Positions 1,297-5,583 of a DNA stretch of 6,094 bases are shown here, piece by piece. The stretch is from the IMG/VR virus record IMGVR_UViG_3300023487_000043, positions 1-6,094 of that record, one strand, 5' to 3'. The notes under the pieces were generated by a model. The model was not told where the DNA came from. It did no database searches and saw nothing but the letters and a program-made list of their open reading frames with translations. Source of the DNA: a virus. Its lineage: Duplodnaviria > Heunggongvirae > Uroviricota > Caudoviricetes. Within the stretch, counting starts at the first letter, position 1. Each line of letters begins with the position of its first letter. Position numbers and translations under genes: made by a program.

Positions 1297-1596
1297 TCAA
1301 ATAAGTGGTTTGCTGCCTAATTTCATTTTCTGGCGACCAACACAAGTCACACCCATTTCACTGCGTGGCTTGCTGTAGTAAATACGGTTCTGTTTACGCT
1401 CGACTTCTTCTGCCTTCTTGCAGCGAAGGCTTCCGAGTGATGCTGCTTTATCTGCTCTGACGCAACCAGAGAGCTTTAGCGCAATTTTTCGCGCCAGTCG
1501 CTGCTCTTGCATTGCCTGCTCACGTTGAGCCTGTCTGCGTGCTCTGCGGCGATTTCTGGCGTTATCGTCAGCCAGATATGTAATGACTACTGTCAT
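1297..1596 (-). CDS. N-like transcription antiterminator (P22 gene 24 / lambda N family)
   Basis: 99 aa. N-terminal MTVVITY followed by an arginine-rich motif NARNRRRARRQAQREQ typical of N-family boxB-binding peptides. First gene downstream of pL/nutL. GGAGG 5 nt upstream of the ATG. Confidence 0.7.
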   Translation of the reverse strand: MTVVITYLADDNARNRRRARRQAQREQAMQEQRLARKIALKLSGCVRADKAASLGSLRCKKAEEVERKQNRIYYSKPRSEMGVTCVGRQKMKLGSKPLI

Positions 1597-1703
1597 GTTG
1601 ACCTCCGATGATTGACTTTGGCGGTGACGCGCCGGGTGCTTATCTTCCGGTTGCCGTCGTGCAGCTGCACTTCACGTCACCCCAAAGCCAACTACTCTTT
1701 GGT

Positions 1704-1744
1704 TCCCGCATTTCGGCGGGACAATCCCATCAATGTTAAAGAGC
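1704..1744 (-). promoter_or_regulatory. nutL (boxA + boxB)
   Basis: Minus strand reads GCTCTTTAACA (boxA, plus 1734-1744), a 12-nt spacer, then hairpin UCCCGC-CGAAAU-GCGGGA (plus 1704-1721). The same boxA and an identical boxB recur at nutR. Confidence 0.6.
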
Positions 1745-1790: not shown

Positions 1791-1844
1791 AATTTAAGAT
1801 CTCTTTAATTAATGGTCAAGAGTATTTTTGAAGAAAACTTAAAT
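1791..1844 (-). promoter_or_regulatory. OL operators and putative pL
   Basis: 18-bp site ATTTAAGATCTCTTTAAT (1792-1809) fits the P22 c2 half-site pattern ATTTAAG/CTTTAAT. A second site TTTGAAGAAAACTTAAAT (1827-1844). Minus-strand -35 TTGACC (plus 1814-1819), 17-bp spacer, weak -10 TAAATT (plus 1791-1796). Confidence 0.55.
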
Positions 1845-1882
1845 TTTCTTTCGTAACTTAAGTTTGGCTTTGATTTTTAAAG

Positions 1883-1910: not shown

Positions 1911-2561
1911 TTATGGAAGGTTTGCTAGTTTTGCATCGACAACTACGCCGATGATTTTGCAGTTTCCGTTGATCTCGATCATCGGATATTGTGGGTTAAG
2001 TGGTTTTAGAAACTTCCTGCCTGCATCAATAACTAACTTCTTGAAAGTTGCCTCGTTTTCTCCTTCGAGCTTTGCAACTACCAGTTTCCCGTTACGCGGC
2101 TCTACTTCAGGATCGACGAGTATTATCATTCCTTCAGGGATACTGAGACCGGCCGGAGCCGTCATTGAGTCTCCCTTCACATCCAACCAAAACGAATCTT
2201 CTGAACAGTCTACGGTTGTATCGTACCAGTTATCTATTGCACGCTTATGATATGGTTCTACAGCTTCCATCCAGCATCCTGCGCTCACCCAGCTAATCAG
2301 AGGGTATGACCCTCTTGGATCATGCCTACTGTGATAGGCAATGTTTGAAAGACTTTCCTCTCCTTTCATCAGATAGTCAGGGGAACACTTCAACGCATTA
2401 GCCAGGGCGAGAAGATTCTCTCCATTTGGCTCTGTCTCAGAGCGTTCCCACTGAGATATGGCAACATTAGACACGCCGACCATCTTTCCAAGTGCGGCCT
2501 GCCTGATCTTGAGTTCTTTTCTCCGAGCGCGAATGCGCTCTCCCATCAATTGAGTTTTCAT
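1911..2561 (-). CDS. c2: Prophage repressor, P22 c2-type (N-terminal HTH, C-terminal S24/LexA-like autopeptidase)
   Basis: 216 aa. Near-identical by recollection to P22 C2 (MKTQLMGERIRARRKELKIRQAALGKMVGVSNVAISQWERSE...). C-terminal GDSM serine motif. Divergent from cro across an operator region. Confidence 0.93.
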   Translation of the reverse strand: MKTQLMGERIRARRKELKIRQAALGKMVGVSNVAISQWERSETEPNGENLLALANALKCSPDYLMKGEESLSNIAYHSRHDPRGSYPLISWVSAGCWMEAVEPYHKRAIDNWYDTTVDCSEDSFWLDVKGDSMTAPAGLSIPEGMIILVDPEVEPRNGKLVVAKLEGENEATFKKLVIDAGRKFLKPLNPQYPMIEINGNCKIIGVVVDAKLANLP

Positions 2562-2562
2562 A

Positions 2563-2627
2563 GTTAAGACATCTTAAATAAACTTGACTTAAGATTCCTT
2601 TAGTGGATAATTTAAGTGTTCTTTAAT
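2563..2627. promoter_or_regulatory. OR1-OR2-OR3 with pR (rightward) and pRM (leftward)
   Basis: Three 18-bp sites at roughly 23-24 bp spacing: OR3 AGTTAAGACATCTTAAAT (2563-2580), OR2 ACTTAAGATTCCTTTAGT (2587-2604), OR1 ATTTAAGTGTTCTTTAAT (2610-2627). pR -35 TTGACT (2584-2589) and -10 GATAAT (2606-2611). pRM hexamers not confidently placed. Confidence 0.85.
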
Positions 2628-2641
2628 TTCGGAGCGAGTCT

Positions 2642-2827
2642 ATGTACAAGAAAGATGTTATCGACCACTTCGGAACCCAGCGTGCTGTAGCTAAAGCGTT
2701 AGGCATTAGCGACGCAGCAGTCTCTCAGTGGAAGGAAGTCATCCCAGAGAAAGACGCCTATCGACTGGAAGTCGTTACAGCTGGCGCCCTGAAGTATCAA
2801 GAAAGCGCTTACCGCAAAGCGGCATAA
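2642..2827 (+). CDS. cro: Cro (P22-type)
   Basis: 61 aa MYKKDVIDHFGTQRAVAKALGISDAAVSQWKEVIPEKDAYRLE..., matching P22 Cro by recollection. GGAG 7 nt upstream. First gene of the pR operon. Confidence 0.9.
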   Translation: MYKKDVIDHFGTQRAVAKALGISDAAVSQWKEVIPEKDAYRLEVVTAGALKYQESAYRKAA

Positions 2828-2834
2828 GCAAATT

Positions 2835-2877
2835 GCTCTTTAACAGTCATGGTCCTCATTCCCGCCGAAATGCGGGA
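2835..2877 (+). promoter_or_regulatory. nutR (boxA + boxB)
   Basis: GCTCTTTAACA (2835-2845), 14-nt spacer, hairpin TCCCGC-CGAAAT-GCGGGA (2860-2877), identical to the nutL boxB. Confidence 0.65.
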
Positions 2878-2884
2878 ATACAAC

Positions 2885-2902
2885 GCGCATAAGTTGATGC
2901 GC
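2885..2902 (+). other. Hairpin between nutR and cII (tR1-like position)
   Basis: GCGCAT (2885-2890) / ATGCGC (2897-2902) with 6-nt loop, followed by a T-rich stretch. Lambda tR1 is Rho-dependent, so function here is uncertain. Confidence 0.3.
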
Positions 2903-2917
2903 ATAACTTCTTATTTG

Positions 2918-2958
2918 TTAAGGAAATACTTACATATGGTTCGTGCAAACAAACGCAA
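2918..2958 (-). promoter_or_regulatory. pRE with CII-binding TTGC-N6-TTGC repeats
   Basis: Minus strand TTGCGTTTGTTTGC (plus 2945-2958) overlaps the first cII codons; -10-like AAGTAT (plus 2926-2931). Matches the lambda pRE arrangement by recollection. Points leftward through cro toward c2. Confidence 0.65.
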
Positions 2959-3229
2959 CGAGGCTCTAAGAATCGAGAGTGCGTTGCTTAACAAAATCGC
3001 AATGCTTGGAACTGAGAAGACAGCGGAAGCTGTGGGAGTTGATAAGTCGCAGATCAGCAGGTGGAAGAGGGATTGGATTCCAAAGTTCTCAATGCTGCTT
3101 GCTGTTCTTGAATGGGGCGTCGTCGACGACGACATGGCTCGATTGGCACGACAAGTTGCTTCGATTCTCACCAATAAAAAACGCCCGGCGGCAACCGAGC
3201 GTTCTGAACAAATCCAGATGGAATTCTGA
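2936..3229 (+). CDS. cII: CII transcriptional activator (lambda-type)
   Basis: 97 aa MVRANKRNEALRIESALLNKIAMLGTEKTAEAVGVDKSQISRWKRDWIPKFSMLLAVLEWGVVDDDMARLARQVASILTNKKRPAATERSEQIQMEF, essentially identical to lambda CII by recollection. The ORF-track start at 2849 is an upstream frame extension. Confidence 0.92.
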   Translation: MVRANKRNEALRIESALLNKIAMLGTEKTAEAVGVDKSQISRWKRDWIPKFSMLLAVLEWGVVDDDMARLARQVASILTNKKRPAATERSEQIQMEF

Positions 3230-3251
3230 GGTAATTACTGGATCAATCCAC
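3176..3251 (-). ncRNA. OOP-like antisense RNA (terminator present, promoter uncertain)
   Basis: Minus strand CGCUCGG-UUGCCG-CCGGGCG followed by UUUUUU (plus 3182-3201, A-run 3176-3181) inside the cII 3' end, as in lambda OOP. The 5' end is inferred by analogy at about 3251. Confidence 0.45.
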
Positions 3252-3261
3252 AGGAGTAATT

Positions 3262-3906
3262 ATGACATACGAAAATGACAAATTCCAGGTTCTGAAGAGC
3301 ATGAAGGTGCCAGATGATTTTAAATCAAATGGCTTTGTTTATGTGCTTTCGAATGAGTGCATGCCAGGAATTTATAAGATTGGGATGACTAAGCATTCAC
3401 CAGAAGTTAGGGCTAAAGAAATTTCAGCCTCTACTGGCGTTCCTAAGCCATTTAAGGTGATAGCAGCCTTTCATTCAAATAATCCAGCATCAGATGAAAA
3501 ACTCATTCATAAAGCCTTTGCAAAAGAGAGGCTTAGTGATAATCGAGAGTTTTTCAAGCTTGAAGATAATGAGCTTTCTGAATCTCTAAATGAAATAAGG
3601 GCGCTGGTTGGCCCTGAAAGAAATGGCGAGACGGCAGAATACGCAATTTACGACGCATTCATTTCTTTTCGCCATGAAAATGAGCTTGATCTTAATGAGG
3701 AGCTTATAGAGCAAGGTCTGGGTAGTGTAGTTGGTCATCTTCCTGCGGTGAAAAATTTCCTTATTCGCGCCGGAATTGATTACGCGAAGCAACTGATAAG
3801 CAAATATAACTCATCGATAGTTATTAATACAGATGGCAGTGTGGTGATGGTTAAGTCTCTTGAAGCCCAATGCTTTGATGCGGAGGTTGGAAATGAGCCT
3901 GGCTGA
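3262..3906 (+). CDS. T5orf172 / GIY-YIG-like domain protein (214 aa) with uncharacterised C-terminal half
   Basis: AGGAG (3253-3257) then ATG 3262. Motifs GFVYVLSN...PGIYKIGMT...EVRAKE...PFKV...EKLIHKAF...NREFF match the T5orf172 pattern. AT-richer than flanking genes by eye. Sits between cII and the O-like gene. Confidence 0.7.
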   Translation: MTYENDKFQVLKSMKVPDDFKSNGFVYVLSNECMPGIYKIGMTKHSPEVRAKEISASTGVPKPFKVIAAFHSNNPASDEKLIHKAFAKERLSDNREFFKLEDNELSESLNEIRALVGPERNGETAEYAIYDAFISFRHENELDLNEELIEQGLGSVVGHLPAVKNFLIRAGIDYAKQLISKYNSSIVINTDGSVVMVKSLEAQCFDAEVGNEPG

Positions 3907-4735
3907 AGTATTTTACCTGCCGAAGAGTGAACCTGTTGAACAGGAGCGAAGAGTGGCTGATATCGATGATGGTTACACCAGATTCGCTAACGAGCTGCTG
4001 GAAGCTATCGCAAGTGCCGATTTAACCGCTCGCCAGTTGAAAGTTATGCTGGCCTACGTCCGGAAAACATATGGCTTCAATAAGAAAACAGATCGAATAG
4101 CCGATGAGCAAATTGCTCAGTTAACAGGACTGTCAAGGCAGAATGTTAACAAGGCTAAAAAAGAACTGATTTCAATGAATTGCCTGTTTATGGATGGAAA
4201 TCAAATCGGTGTAAACAGGGAGGTATCTGCGTGGCAATTCAGCAAGTGTCTCCAAGTTAGCAACTTTGTCTCGAAGTTAGAGACAAAAAGTGTCTCCAAA
4301 TTAGAGACACTCAATGTCTCGAAGTTAGAGACACACAAAAGACATTCTTTAAAGACAAAAGAAAATATTAATAAACCCCCTATATCCCCCAAAAAAGTTT
4401 CTCAGAAGTTCGACCCGCTAGAAACAGAGTTGCCTGATTGGTTATCAGCAGAAACATGGTTGTCGTGGGTTACCTATCGCAAGGAGATAGGTAAGTCGAT
4501 CAAGTCTAAGCAAAGTGTCACTCAGGCTATCAACGTTCTATGCAGAAGTCTGGAGAAGGGATATACACCTGAAGAAATTATAAACCAGAGCATCGCCAGT
4601 GGTTGGCAGGGTATTTTTGAGCCCAAGACTCCAAAGGGGAAATCTCAACCGAGGCCGCAGCATCGAGCTATGCAGGAAAACTTTGCCACCAAAGATTACG
4701 GACAAACTGAAATGCCTTCATGGGCGCAGGAGTGA
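3893..4735 (+). CDS. Replication initiator, lambda O-like (280 aa from ATG 3893)
   Basis: QERRVADIDDGYTRFANELLEA...RQLKVMLAYVRKTYGFNKKTDRI aligns with the lambda O N-terminal domain (QERNVADLDDGYARLSNMLLEA...). GGAGG 6 nt before ATG 3893. Iterons lie mid-gene. The upstream TTG (3860) and ATG (3878) lack an SD. Confidence 0.85.
   Translation: MSLAEVFYLPKSEPVEQERRVADIDDGYTRFANELLEAIASADLTARQLKVMLAYVRKTYGFNKKTDRIADEQIAQLTGLSRQNVNKAKKELISMNCLFMDGNQIGVNREVSAWQFSKCLQVSNFVSKLETKSVSKLETLNVSKLETHKRHSLKTKENINKPPISPKKVSQKFDPLETELPDWLSAETWLSWVTYRKEIGKSIKSKQSVTQAINVLCRSLEKGYTPEEIINQSIASGWQGIFEPKTPKGKSQPRPQHRAMQENFATKDYGQTEMPSWAQE
4247..4400. repeat. Replication origin: four iterons plus AT-rich region inside the O-like gene
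   Basis: 17-bp iterons at 4248-4264 (GTCTCCAAGTTAGCAAC), 4268-4284 and 4316-4332 (GTCTCGAAGTTAGAGAC), 4292-4308 (GTCTCCAAATTAGAGAC), each with GTCTC/GAGAC dyad ends. Followed by an A/T-rich tract 4333-4400. Confidence 0.8.
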
Positions 4736-4737
4736 AC

Positions 4738-5583
4738 ATGACGCTGGATGAAAAGATCTCCCAACTGGAGAAAAAACTTGCAGAATTGAGTTCTCCGCCA
4801 ATTGCTATCGAGCATACAGCTGTAGAAATTGGCACTGGCATCTGTGAAAAACATGGTGAGTTTGAGCAGCGTAACCGTTACTCGACTGGGCCAATTAAGT
4901 TTGCCTCAAGACCTAGCGAATGCCCGGAATGCATGAGAGATGAGCTTATTCGGCTACAGGCAGAGAAGATTAAAATCGACGAGGAATCACGTAAGCGCAA
5001 TGTCGAGTTTCTGTTGAATAATCTTGATATTCCTGAACGATTCAAGGGTTGCACACTACAGAACTACGAGCCAGTCAACGACGATGCAAAGAGAGTGCTC
5101 AGGGTGTGTCAGGCATACGCCAGCAAATGGCCTGAGAGGTTACAGAAAGGCGGTGGGCTGGTTATGTGTGGAAAGCCTGGTACTGGAAAGAATCATCTTG
5201 CACTGGCTATCGCCCGGCACGCAATTACGGAACATCAAAGCTCAGCTATTTTCACAACGGCGCTGAAAATTGCCAGAGAATATAAATCAACATGGTCGAA
5301 AAACTCCACCCGCACAGAGGATGAAGTGATCCGACAGTTCACTAAACCTGACCTGCTAATTATCGATGAGGTTGGTGTGCAGTTCGGAAGCGAGGCGGAA
5401 AAGATGATCATGTTCGAAATCATCAACACCCGCTACGAGCGCATGAAGCCAACAATCCTGATTAGCAACCAGAGCAAAGATGAACTGTCTGCATTCATTG
5501 GTGAGCGTGTTATTGACAGGATGAATGATGGCGGCGGATGCACCCTTGCGTTTACATGGGATAGTTACAGGAGCAGAACGTGA
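4738..5583 (+). CDS. DnaC-like helicase loader (AAA+ ATPase, IstB/DnaC family)
   Basis: Walker A GKPGTGKNHLALAI and Walker B LLIIDEVG. AGGAG (4728-4732) 5 nt before ATG 4738, directly after the O-like stop (4733-4735). The ORF-track start at 4720 has no SD. N-terminal Cys/His cluster (CEKH...CPEC). Confidence 0.85.
   Translation: MTLDEKISQLEKKLAELSSPPIAIEHTAVEIGTGICEKHGEFEQRNRYSTGPIKFASRPSECPECMRDELIRLQAEKIKIDEESRKRNVEFLLNNLDIPERFKGCTLQNYEPVNDDAKRVLRVCQAYASKWPERLQKGGGLVMCGKPGTGKNHLALAIARHAITEHQSSAIFTTALKIAREYKSTWSKNSTRTEDEVIRQFTKPDLLIIDEVGVQFGSEAEKMIMFEIINTRYERMKPTILISNQSKDELSAFIGERVIDRMNDGGGCTLAFTWDSYRSRT

What the first reader, a model, noticed from the sequence alone, without database searches (positions are those of the whole stretch)
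2828..2960. Mosaic junction: P22-type immunity and nut sites joined to a lambda-type cII/pRE
c2, cro, the 18-bp operators and the nut sites (boxA GCTCTTTAACA, boxB loop CGAAAU) are P22-like or at least non-lambda. From pRE onward cII is essentially lambda cII. The recombination boundary should lie between nutR boxB (2877) and the pRE -10 (about 2926). The cII-dependent pRE therefore drives a heterologous repressor gene.
Basis: partly seen in the sequence, partly recalled or inferred. Interest (0 to 1): 0.4.

Follow-up and report, generated by a model that had tools for sequence, protein, structure and literature searches.

The report
Ordinary lambdoid phage module junction
This is a real but routine recombination joint in a lambda-family prophage, where a P22/phage-21-type immunity and nut region meets a lambda/434-type cII gene; the same joint is already present in sequenced phages and in about 6% of complete E. 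coli genomes.

Summary
Left of position 2919 the window is 100% identical to phages N7 and CUS-3. It belongs to the P22/phage-21 immunity family: C2 is 92% identical to P22 and 97% to phage 21, and Cro is 95% and 97%. From 2919 rightward it is 99.4% identical to phage 434 and 97.4% to lambda, and CII is 100% identical to 434 CII. Against N7, which has the same left arm but a P22-type c1, it is 2939|2940. All three allele classes share the 21 bp in between (TAAGGAAATACTTACATATGG), which holds the pRE -10, the cII ribosome-binding site and ATGG. The joint is not new. CUS-3, Gally and JEP4 carry it continuously at 98.5-98.9%, 310 of 5,426 complete E. coli genomes carry it, and so do 26 viral contigs. 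The "P22-type" label is loose. boxA is identical to phage 21's. boxB (loop CGAAAU) matches neither P22 nor phage 21, and it co-occurs with a distinct N arginine-rich motif. A lambda-type cII/pRE driving a foreign repressor is the normal lambdoid design, because the activator gene, its binding site and the -10 travel together in one cassette of about 350 bp. Interest is low.

The parts
1297..1596 (-). N antiterminator gene, itself chimeric. The 3' 200 nt are phage 21-type and the 5' 100 nt encode a different arginine-rich motif (DNARNRRRARR).
   Evidence: 199/200 identical to phage 21 at 1297-1496 but 45/99 at 1497-1596. Identical to the CUS-3 and N7 N-terminus.
1704..1744 (-). nutL: boxA GCTCTTTAACA (1734-1744) and boxB UCCCGC-CGAAAU-GCGGGA (1704-1721).
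   Evidence: Same boxB core as nutR. Mapped from the phage 21 annotation.
1791..1873 (.). pL (1819-1791, minus strand) and operators OL1-OL3 (1792-1809, 1827-1844, 1856-1873).
   Evidence: promoter scan; mapping from the annotated phage 21 operators.
1911..2561 (-). c2 repressor gene of the P22/21 family (HTH_3 + Peptidase_S24).
   Evidence: Pfam; 92% identical to P22 C2, residues 17-53 identical; 97% to phage 21 and HK629.
2562..2627 (.). OR3, OR2 and OR1 (2562-2579, 2587-2604, 2610-2627), overlapped by pR (2584-2611, plus strand).
   Evidence: the OR region matches phage 21 at 79/80 and P22 at 77/80.
2642..2827 (+). cro (P22_Cro family).
   Evidence: PF14549, E = 8.7e-28; 95% identical to P22, 97% to phage 21.
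2835..2845 (+). nutR boxA, GCTCTTTAACA.
   Evidence: the 18 nt at 2828-2845 are identical to phage 21, and 15/18 match P22.
2858..2879 (+). nutR boxB hairpin: 8-bp stem and loop CGAAAU.
   Evidence: dG -12.5 kcal/mol, z -4.07; co-occurs with the same nutL boxB and N motif in 23 of 24 contigs.
2885..2902 (+). GCGCAT/ATGCGC hairpin in the nutR-cII spacer, where lambda has tR1. The stem is shared with P22 and the loop differs.
   Evidence: dG -9.0 kcal/mol. The segment 2879-2918 matches P22 at 26/40 and lambda at 24/40.
2919..2939 (.). 21-bp linker TAAGGAAATACTTACATATGG, shared exactly by the window, N7, lambda and 434. It holds the approximate pRE +1, the pRE -10 (2926-2931, minus strand), the cII Shine-Dalgarno AAGGA (2920-2924) and ATGG. 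Breakpoints are 2918|2919 against lambda/434 and 2939|2940 against N7.
2945..2958 (-). CII binding box TTGCGTTTGTTTGC (TTGC-N6-TTGC) straddling the pRE -35, inside cII codons 4-8.
   Evidence: the only such box in the window; equivalent feature annotated in phage 21; identical to lambda and 434.
2936..3229 (+). cII, lambda/434 type.
   Evidence: 100% identical to 434 CII, 99% to lambda, 49-50% to P22 and N7 C1; PF05269, E = 1.7e-48; 288/290 nt match 434.
3176..3262 (-). oop antisense RNA region, placed by homology, with its terminator stem at 3178-3205.
   Evidence: 434 ncRNA annotation transferred by offset; terminator-like site on the minus strand, 3205-3178.
3230..3267 (.). Right-hand conserved linker of the cII cassette, running from the cII stop to the next start codon. 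Homology to lambda ends after about 3267.
   Evidence: matches HK629 at 37/38, lambda at 34/38 and N7 at 32/35, then about 50% identity from 3268.

Best explanation
The interval holds a genuine module boundary in the early region of a lambdoid (P22-like) phage or prophage.

Left of 2919 are the end of cro and a nutR site (boxA, boxB, a GC hairpin and a short spacer). This nutR belongs to an N/nut class shared by CUS-3, N7 and IME10, and here it sits next to a P22/21-family c2-OR-cro immunity module. From 2919 to about 3267 lies a 350-bp lambda/434-type establishment cassette. It contains the pRE -10, the cII ribosome-binding site and ATG, the CII box across the pRE -35 inside the first codons of cII, the cII gene and the oop region.

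Inferred mechanism, by homology to lambda: pR transcription reads cro, N loads at nutR, and transcription continues into cII. CII binds TTGC-N6-TTGC at 2945-2958. RNA polymerase then starts near 2919 and transcribes leftward, antisense through nutR and cro, into c2 to establish repression. The activator gene, its DNA target and the -10 all sit inside the cassette, and the transcript simply runs into whatever lies to its left. The cassette is therefore plug-compatible with any immunity module.

The joint sits at a 21-bp stretch conserved for function (pRE -10, Shine-Dalgarno, ATGG) that the lambda-type and N7-type alleles share exactly. It most likely arose, and has been re-used, by recombination at or next to this linker. 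The joint is inherited, not specific to this window.

Shown: the identity discontinuities, the breakpoints, the reassortment of flanks in other genomes, and the population frequency. Inferred: promoter activity, the N-nut pairing, and the recombination mechanism.
For: - Breakpoints: there are 0/460 mismatches to N7 left of 2940 but 125/280 to the right. There are 2/311 mismatches to 434 right of 2918 but 51/91 at 2828-2918 (Fisher p = 5e-63 and 7.6e-37).
- Proteins: CII is 100% identical to 434 CII, 99% to lambda, and 49-50% to P22 and N7 C1.
- Same joint elsewhere: CUS-3, Gally and JEP4 and 310 of 5,426 complete E. coli genomes.
- Linker scan: the linker occurs in at least 120 viral contigs. 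Of 117 with full flanks, 26 have a window-type nutR with lambda-type cII, 13 have a window-type nutR with P22-type c1, and 78 have lambda-type on both sides.
- Reassortment: the window-type nutR occurs next to at least three unrelated cro/repressor types, and two contigs carry cII/c1 chimeras.
- Repeated exchange: the window and CUS-3 differ at 0/460 positions left of the joint but at 9/290 in cII (p = 1.8e-4). Different lambda-type sub-alleles therefore sit on an identical left arm.
- pRE elements: they are identical to lambda and 434 from 2919 to 2968 and match the positions annotated in phage 21 and 434.
- Literature: P22 C1 and lambda CII are reported to use the same TTGCN6TTGC/T target (PMC2629481). 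cI and Cro are reported to be co-transferred as a unit in lambdoid phages (PMC9836094). P22-like phages differ by many patches of similar and dissimilar DNA (PMC8022706).
Against: - No experiment here shows that pRE fires or that CII activates it in this context.
- The exact identity in the linker is only 21 bp. That is below the minimal efficient pairing segments quoted for Red-beta (23-27 bp) and RecA (31-34 bp) (PMC3945230). Homologous crossover strictly inside the linker is therefore marginal. The joint could instead reflect illegitimate joining followed by selection, or a crossover between parents that shared longer homology than the phages sampled here.
- The fourth flank combination, lambda-type nutR with P22-type c1, was not seen among 117 contigs.
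- The direction of exchange cannot be determined.
Confidence: 0.9

Rival explanations
1. There was no recombination. One lineage has a slowly evolving cII and a fast-evolving immunity/nut region, which only gives the appearance of a junction.
For: cII is generally better conserved among lambdoid phages than the immunity genes are (general knowledge). The C-terminal end of cII is conserved even in phage 21.
Against: N7 is 100% identical to the window over 460 nt up to 2939, and then only 55% identical in c1. 434 shows the reciprocal pattern. cII is 288/290 identical to 434 at the nucleotide level, synonymous sites included. The two flanks occur in three combinations. Rate variation cannot produce incongruent nearest neighbours.
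Confidence: 0.02
2. The window is a direct recombinant of P22 proper and lambda proper.
For: C2 is 92% and Cro 95% identical to P22, and CII is 99% identical to lambda. The boxB stem core CCGCCGA..GCGG resembles P22 nutR.
Against: - Phage 21 and HK629 are closer than P22 for C2, Cro, OR and boxA.
- c2 is only 82% identical to P22 at the nucleotide level (536/651).
- The boxB loop and the N motif differ from P22.
- cII is closer to 434 than to lambda.
- The exact joint pre-exists in CUS-3, Gally, JEP4 and hundreds of E. coli prophages.
Confidence: 0.03
3. The joint arose by illegitimate (non-homologous) joining, and selection retained only recombinants with intact regulatory signals. On this view the 21-bp linker is conserved for function and was not the crossover substrate.
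For: The exact identity is only 21 bp, below the quoted minimal pairing lengths for Red-beta and RecA. Both edges of the cassette coincide with translation-start signals. The selection model predicts this pattern (the model of Juhala et al. 2000, cited; my knowledge of its content).
Against: The same 21-mer is shared exactly by three allele classes, while true P22 has only 15/21. This is what crossover within shared sequence would leave behind. Phage Rad52-like recombinases are reported to work on short and diverged homology (PMC3945230). cII/c1 chimeras with internal crossovers exist, which shows homologous exchange in this region.
Confidence: 0.3
4. The junction is an assembly chimera or sequencing artefact.
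For: No single record covers more than 74% of the whole 6.1-kb window.
Against: The 133-bp junction is found intact, many copies at 100% identity, in 310 complete E. coli genomes, in three isolated phages and in 26 viral contigs.
Confidence: 0.01

Closest known systems
Enterobacteria phage CUS-3 (CP000711), with Escherichia phages Gally and JEP4
   Same: They carry the same c2-OR-cro-nutR region joined to lambda-type cII, continuous with the window at 98.5-98.9% over 2560-3225. CUS-3 has 0 mismatches at 2480-2939.
   Different: CUS-3 has a different lambda-type cII sub-allele (9/290 differences, clustered at the 3' end). Its sequence after cII differs, and it has a 206-bp insertion between N and nutL.
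Escherichia phage N7 and Enterobacteria phage IME10
   Same: They have an identical N motif, nutL, c2, OR, cro, nutR and 21-bp linker, with 100% identity up to 2939.
   Different: They carry a P22-type c1 in place of lambda-type cII (155/280 nt, 50% amino-acid identity). Its box is TTGC-N6-TTGT.
Phage 434 and lambda cII/pRE/oop region, and the laboratory hybrids lambda imm434 and lambda imm21
   Same: The pRE -10, CII box and cII are identical or nearly so (434: 309/311; lambda: 303/311). The same cII cassette serves unrelated repressors. Lambda imm434 is reported to be identical to lambda throughout cII-O (PMC3349717).
   Different: In 434 versus lambda, homology resumes just after cro, and the two share a lambda-type nutR. 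Here the nutR is of a different type, and homology to lambda starts only at about pRE +1.
Salmonella phage P22 immC (c2-cro-c1) and coliphage 21 immunity region
   Same: Gene order and 18-bp operators are the same. C2 is 92% (P22) and 97% (phage 21) identical, and Cro 95% and 97%. boxA is identical to phage 21.
   Different: P22 has its own c1 (49% identical) and GACAA-loop boxB sites. Phage 21 has its own cII (42% identical) and a different boxB and N motif.

Membership tests
Lambda-type CII/pRE lysogeny-establishment module | CII protein of the Phage_CII family | tested here: met
   PF05269, E = 1.7e-48, full-length match. 100% identical to 434 CII and 99% to lambda CII.
Lambda-type CII/pRE lysogeny-establishment module | A TTGC-N6-TTGC box on the opposite strand within the 5' end of cII, flanking the -35, with a -10 upstream of the cII ATG | tested here: met
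   The box is at 2945-2958 on the minus strand and is the only one in the window. The -10 AAGTAT is at 2926-2931. Sequence is identical to lambda and 434 over 2919-2968. Positions match the phage 21 and 434 annotations.
Lambda-type CII/pRE lysogeny-establishment module | CII-dependent leftward transcription into the repressor gene | not testable with these tools
   Needs reporter fusions or 5' end mapping. It is inferred from sequence identity only.
P22/21-family immunity region (immC type) | LexA-like repressor (HTH + S24 peptidase) divergent from a P22_Cro-family Cro | tested here: met
   PF01381 + PF00717 for C2 and PF14549 for Cro. C2 is 92% identical to P22 C2, and Cro 95%.
P22/21-family immunity region (immC type) | Three 18-bp operators at OR and three at OL | tested here: met
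   OR matches P22 at 77/80 and phage 21 at 79/80. Operators were mapped from the phage 21 annotation. OL is more diverged (63/80 to phage 21, 67/80 to P22).
P22/21-family immunity region (immC type) | Same immunity specificity as P22 or phage 21 | not testable with these tools
   C2 residues 17-53, which include the HTH, are identical to P22. That suggests the same specificity. Cross-immunity plating is needed to confirm it.
P22-type nut/gp24 antitermination specificity | boxB with a GACAA-type loop, recognised by the gp24 arginine-rich motif | tested here: not met
   The window's boxB loop is CGAAAU at both nutL and nutR. P22 has ..GACAA.. loops. N is only 28% identical to gp24 overall and its motif differs.
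Lambdoid N/nut antitermination in general | boxA plus a boxB hairpin downstream of both pL and pR, and an N protein with an N-terminal arginine-rich motif | tested here: met
   boxA and boxB are present at both nut sites. The N motif is DNARNRRRARR. The N motif, nutL and nutR types co-occur in 23 of 24 contigs across different immunity modules. Pfam gives no hit for this N, so membership rests on alignment to the phage 21 and lambda N proteins.
Lambdoid mosaic module boundary | An abrupt identity transition, with the same flanks found in other combinations in other genomes | tested here: met

The most novel reading that the evidence does not exclude
The 21-bp pRE(-10)/Shine-Dalgarno/ATGG linker, together with the conserved linker of about 38 bp after the cII stop, may act as a recurrent crossover pair. 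Through it, lambda-type and P22-type cII cassettes would be swapped repeatedly on one nutR/immunity backbone. The nutR that abuts the linker may belong to an uncharacterised N-boxB specificity class: a GAAA-containing hexaloop paired with the DNARNRRRARR motif, distinct from the lambda, P22 and phage 21 classes.
Probability: 0.4. Interest if true: 0.3.

Novelty: already known. Interest (0 to 1): 0.15.

Why it matters
It matters little beyond annotation. The result gives a base-pair-resolution example of the modular theory of lambdoid phage evolution. The cII cassette carries its own promoter target and is bounded by short linkers conserved for function. This explains why it works next to any immunity module. 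The practical value is for prophage annotation:

- The immunity type (P22/21), the N/nut type (CUS-3/N7 class) and the cII type (lambda/434) should be called independently.
- The 126-codon "cII" ORFs annotated in CUS-3 and N7 probably start too far upstream.

The only element that might repay experiments is the uncharacterised N motif/boxB pair noticed alongside the junction.

Tried and rejected
- Rfam scan of the whole window at E <= 1 gave no family, and nothing for oop or nut.
- tblastn of the 34-aa N-terminal motif against phages gave no match. The low-complexity filter probably masks the arginine-rich query, so this is uninformative. Distribution was instead taken from nucleotide matches and a regex on translated contigs.
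- Exact scans of one-genome-per-species bacterial genomes for a 50-mer and then a 32-mer spanning the joint both gave 0 hits. The joint is an accessory prophage allele absent from the representative genomes. This says little about host range.
- The CUS-3 paper (PMC1951898) is not held, so what its authors said about "boundary sequences" could not be checked. In the record, bsq5 lies between N and cI, not at this junction.
- Literature searches found no paper characterising this boxB or N motif.
- MAFFT misaligned the boxB region against P22 (12/31). Direct inspection shows a shared stem core with P22 nutR, so the low figure overstates the difference.
- My first segment coordinates for nutL were a few bases off. 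The corrected coordinates are in the parts list.
- The original lambda record did not list a pRE transcript feature. The equivalence of window 2919 with the lambda pRE start (38343) therefore rests on my recollection and on the 7-nt distance from the -10.
- The in-frame ATG at 2849, which extends cII to 126 aa, was considered and rejected as the real start. It has no Shine-Dalgarno and the extension would encode through boxB. An open stretch of 29 codons is expected by chance about a quarter of the time.

Full report
**What the window is**

The 6,094-bp window is the early control region of a lambdoid phage or prophage. Features in order along the window:

| Feature | Coordinates | Strand | Evidence |
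|---|---|---|---|
| Small ORFs without Pfam hits | left end | - | |
| N | 1297-1596 | minus | |
| nutL | 1704-1744 | minus | |
| pL and OL1-3 | 1791-1873 | | |
| c2 (HTH_3 + Peptidase_S24) | 1911-2561 | minus | |
| OR3-OR1 and pR | 2562-2627 | | |
| cro (P22_Cro family) | 2642-2827 | plus | |
| nutR | 2835-2879 | plus | |
| GC hairpin | 2885-2902 | plus | |
| cII (Phage_CII family) | 2936-3229 | plus | |
| T5orf172/MUG113 gene | 3262-3906 | plus | |
| O-like replication gene with four 19-bp iterons | 3893-4735 | plus | |
| DnaC/IstB-like ATPase | 4738-5583 | plus | |

No single phage record covers more than 63% of the window, and no E. coli genome covers more than 74%. Every piece of it is nevertheless known.

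**Checking the observation**

- boxA GCTCTTTAACA is at 2835-2845.
- boxB is an 8-bp stem with loop CGAAAU at 2858-2879. It folds well on its own (dG -12.5 kcal/mol, z -4.07). Its 18-nt core recurs in nutL.
- The operators map one-to-one onto the 18-bp operators annotated in phage 21.
- The pRE -10 (AAGTAT, minus strand) is at 2926-2931.
- The CII box TTGCGTTTGTTTGC is at 2945-2958 on the minus strand. It is the only TTGYN6TTGY match in the window.

**Placing the breakpoint**

I aligned the window with CUS-3, N7, phage 21, HK629, P22, lambda and 434 and counted matches by segment.

| Comparison | Segment | Matches |
|---|---|---|
| 434 | 2828-2845 | 5/18 |
| 434 | 2846-2878 | 11/33 |
| 434 | 2879-2918 | 24/40 |
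| 434 | 2919-2939 | 21/21 |
| 434 | 2940-3229 | 288/290 |
| lambda | 2919-2939 | 21/21 |
| lambda | 2940-3229 | 282/290 |
| N7 | 2480-2939 | 460/460 |
| N7 | cII body (2940-3229) | 155/280 |

Both transitions are abrupt (Fisher p = 7.6e-37 for 434 and 5e-63 for N7). The breakpoint is therefore 2918|2919 relative to lambda/434 and 2939|2940 relative to N7. N7 has the same left arm as the window but a P22-type c1. All three allele classes share the intervening 21-mer TAAGGAAATACTTACATATGG exactly, whereas true P22 has 15/21.

This 21-mer contains the pRE -10, the cII Shine-Dalgarno and ATGG. Its left edge lies 7 nt downstream of the -10, at about pRE +1. By my recollection the lambda pRE start is 38343, which aligns to window 2919. 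The lambda records shown did not list that feature.

The right edge of the lambda-type segment is a second conserved linker at 3230-3267, running from the cII stop to the next start codon. It matches HK629 at 37/38 and lambda at 34/38. After it the window diverges from lambda into the T5orf172 gene. The lambda/434-type insert is thus a cassette of about 350 bp, bounded on both sides by translation-start signals.

**What the left arm is**

"P22-type" is right at family level but not the best label.
- C2 is 92% identical to P22 C2, with residues 17-53 (including the HTH) identical. It is 97% identical to the phage 21 and HK629 repressors.
- Cro is 95% identical to P22 and 97% to phage 21.
- OR matches P22 at 77/80 and phage 21 at 79/80.

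The nut sites are not P22's. The 18 nt from the cro stop through boxA are identical to phage 21 and 15/18 to P22. boxB resembles P22 nutR in its stem core (CCGCCGA..GCGG), but its loop is one base shorter: CGAAAU against CGACAAC. It is unrelated to the phage 21 boxB.

The N gene is consistent with this. Its 3' 200 nt are 199/200 identical to phage 21 N, but the 5' 100 nt, which encode the arginine-rich motif, are 45/99. The motif (DNARNRRRARR) differs from those of lambda, P22 and phage 21. Among viral contigs with enough flank, this motif, this nutL boxB and this nutR boxB co-occur in 23 of 24 cases even though the immunity modules between them differ. They never accompany a lambda-type nutR (0 of 50).

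**Is the joint new?**

No.
- CUS-3, Gally and JEP4 match the window continuously across 2560-3225 at 98.5-98.9%. Those phages carry the same mosaic, so this shows inheritance and not absence of mosaicism.
- The 133-bp interval is present at full length in 310 of 5,426 complete E. coli genomes, many at 100% identity.

Of 117 contigs with full flanks:

| Left flank | Right flank | Contigs | Distinct sequences |
|---|---|---|---|
| Window-type nutR | Lambda-type cII | 26 | 14 |
| Window-type nutR | P22-type c1 | 13 | 9 |
| Lambda/434-type | Lambda-type cII | 78 | 26 |
| Lambda/434-type | P22-type c1 | 0 | 0 |

The window-type nutR also sits beside at least three unrelated cro/repressor types, and two contigs (L045, L089) carry cII/c1 chimeras. 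Even the window and CUS-3 differ at 0/460 positions left of the joint but at 9/290 in cII (p = 1.8e-4). The window's allele is 434-like, and CUS-3's is partly lambda-like. Exchange at this boundary has therefore happened more than once.

**How it most likely works**

This is inferred from identity to lambda and 434, not shown here.
1. After infection, pR (2584-2611) transcribes cro and nutR.
2. N, whose motif matches this boxB, modifies RNA polymerase so that it reads on into cII.
3. CII binds the TTGC-N6-TTGC box inside its own first codons and recruits polymerase to the weak -10 at 2926-2931.
4. The pRE transcript starts near 2919 and runs leftward, antisense through nutR and cro, into c2.

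The activator gene, its DNA target and the -10 are all inside the cassette, and the transcript needs nothing specific from what lies to its left. Any immunity module can therefore be served. The identical CII protein sits beside the unrelated 434 repressor in phage 434.

P22 C1 and lambda CII are reported to use the same TTGCN6TTGC/T target (PMC2629481, citing Ho et al. 1992). That would explain why either cassette is tolerated on the same backbone. A weak terminator-like hairpin on the minus strand inside cro (2821-2806) lies in cro coding sequence that is 91-94% identical to P22 and phage 21. By eye the hairpin is also present in P22. It is therefore unlikely to be a new barrier to pRE read-through.

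**How the joint arose**

There are two candidates.
- Homologous exchange within the shared linker. Phage Rad52-like recombinases are reported to act on short and diverged homology (PMC3945230). The exact sharing of the 21-mer by three allele classes, and the existence of intragenic cII/c1 chimeras, fit this.
- Illegitimate joining followed by selection for intact signals. Supporting this, 21 bp is below the minimal efficient pairing segments quoted for Red-beta (23-27 bp) and RecA (31-34 bp).

The data here cannot separate the two, and the direction of exchange is unknown.

**Comparison with known systems, and verdict**

The interval is a textbook lambdoid module boundary.
- cI and Cro are reported to be co-transferred as a unit (PMC9836094).
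- P22-like genomes differ by dozens of similar and dissimilar patches (PMC8022706).
- The laboratory hybrids lambda imm434 and lambda imm21 show the same plug-compatibility (PMC3349717).

The region passes the tests for a lambda-type CII/pRE module, for a P22/21-family immunity region and for a generic N/nut system. It fails the test for P22-type nut specificity. The finding is real and correctly placed, but ordinary and already represented in public phage genomes. The only mildly interesting by-product is the uncharacterised N motif/boxB pair.

Noticed in passing
window 1297-1596 (minus strand): The N gene is itself a mosaic. Its 3' 200 nt are 199/200 identical to phage 21 N, but the 5' 100 nt, which encode the arginine-rich motif, are only 45/99. 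This places a second junction near 1496/1497, inside the gene.
   Followed up: partly
window 1704-1721 (minus strand) and 2858-2879 (plus strand): boxB at both nut sites has the loop CGAAAU (a GAAA core flanked by C and U) on a P22-nutR-like stem. It co-occurs with the N motif DNARNRRRARR in 23 of 24 viral contigs across different immunity modules. I found no paper characterising this specificity class.
   Followed up: partly
window 2849-3229: An in-frame ATG at 2849 extends the cII ORF to 126 aa. CUS-3 and N7 annotate their cII/C1 genes from this upstream ATG. It has no Shine-Dalgarno and the extension would be translated through boxB, so it is probably a longest-ORF annotation artefact.
   Followed up: partly
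window 3262-3906: A T5orf172/MUG113 (GIY-YIG-like) gene sits between cII and the O-like replication gene, where lambda has O directly. Its start codon lies in the conserved linker that lambda uses for the O start.
   Followed up: partly
window 4247-4333: Four 19-bp palindromic iterons (TGTCTCGAAGTTAGAGACA, spaced 20-24 bp apart) lie inside the O-like gene. This is the likely replication origin.
   Followed up: partly
L001 (CUS-3) about 1850-2050, compared with window 1597-1611: CUS-3 carries a 206-bp insertion between N and nutL that the window and N7 lack. It lies within the feature that the CUS-3 record calls boundary sequence bsq5.
   Followed up: no
L045 and L089 (viral contigs), cII region: These two contigs have a cII/c1 gene that is 78% lambda-type and 87% P22-type. 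They are chimeras with a crossover inside the gene, on a window-type nutR.
   Followed up: no
window 2940-3229 compared with L001 (CUS-3): The window and CUS-3 are identical over the 460 nt left of the joint but differ at 9 of 290 positions in cII (p = 1.8e-4). The window's allele is 434-like, and CUS-3's is partly lambda-like with a divergent 3' end.
   Followed up: yes
window 1791-1873: OL is much more diverged from phage 21 and P22 (63/80 and 67/80) than OR is (79/80 and 77/80), even though the repressor HTH is identical to P22's.
   Followed up: no
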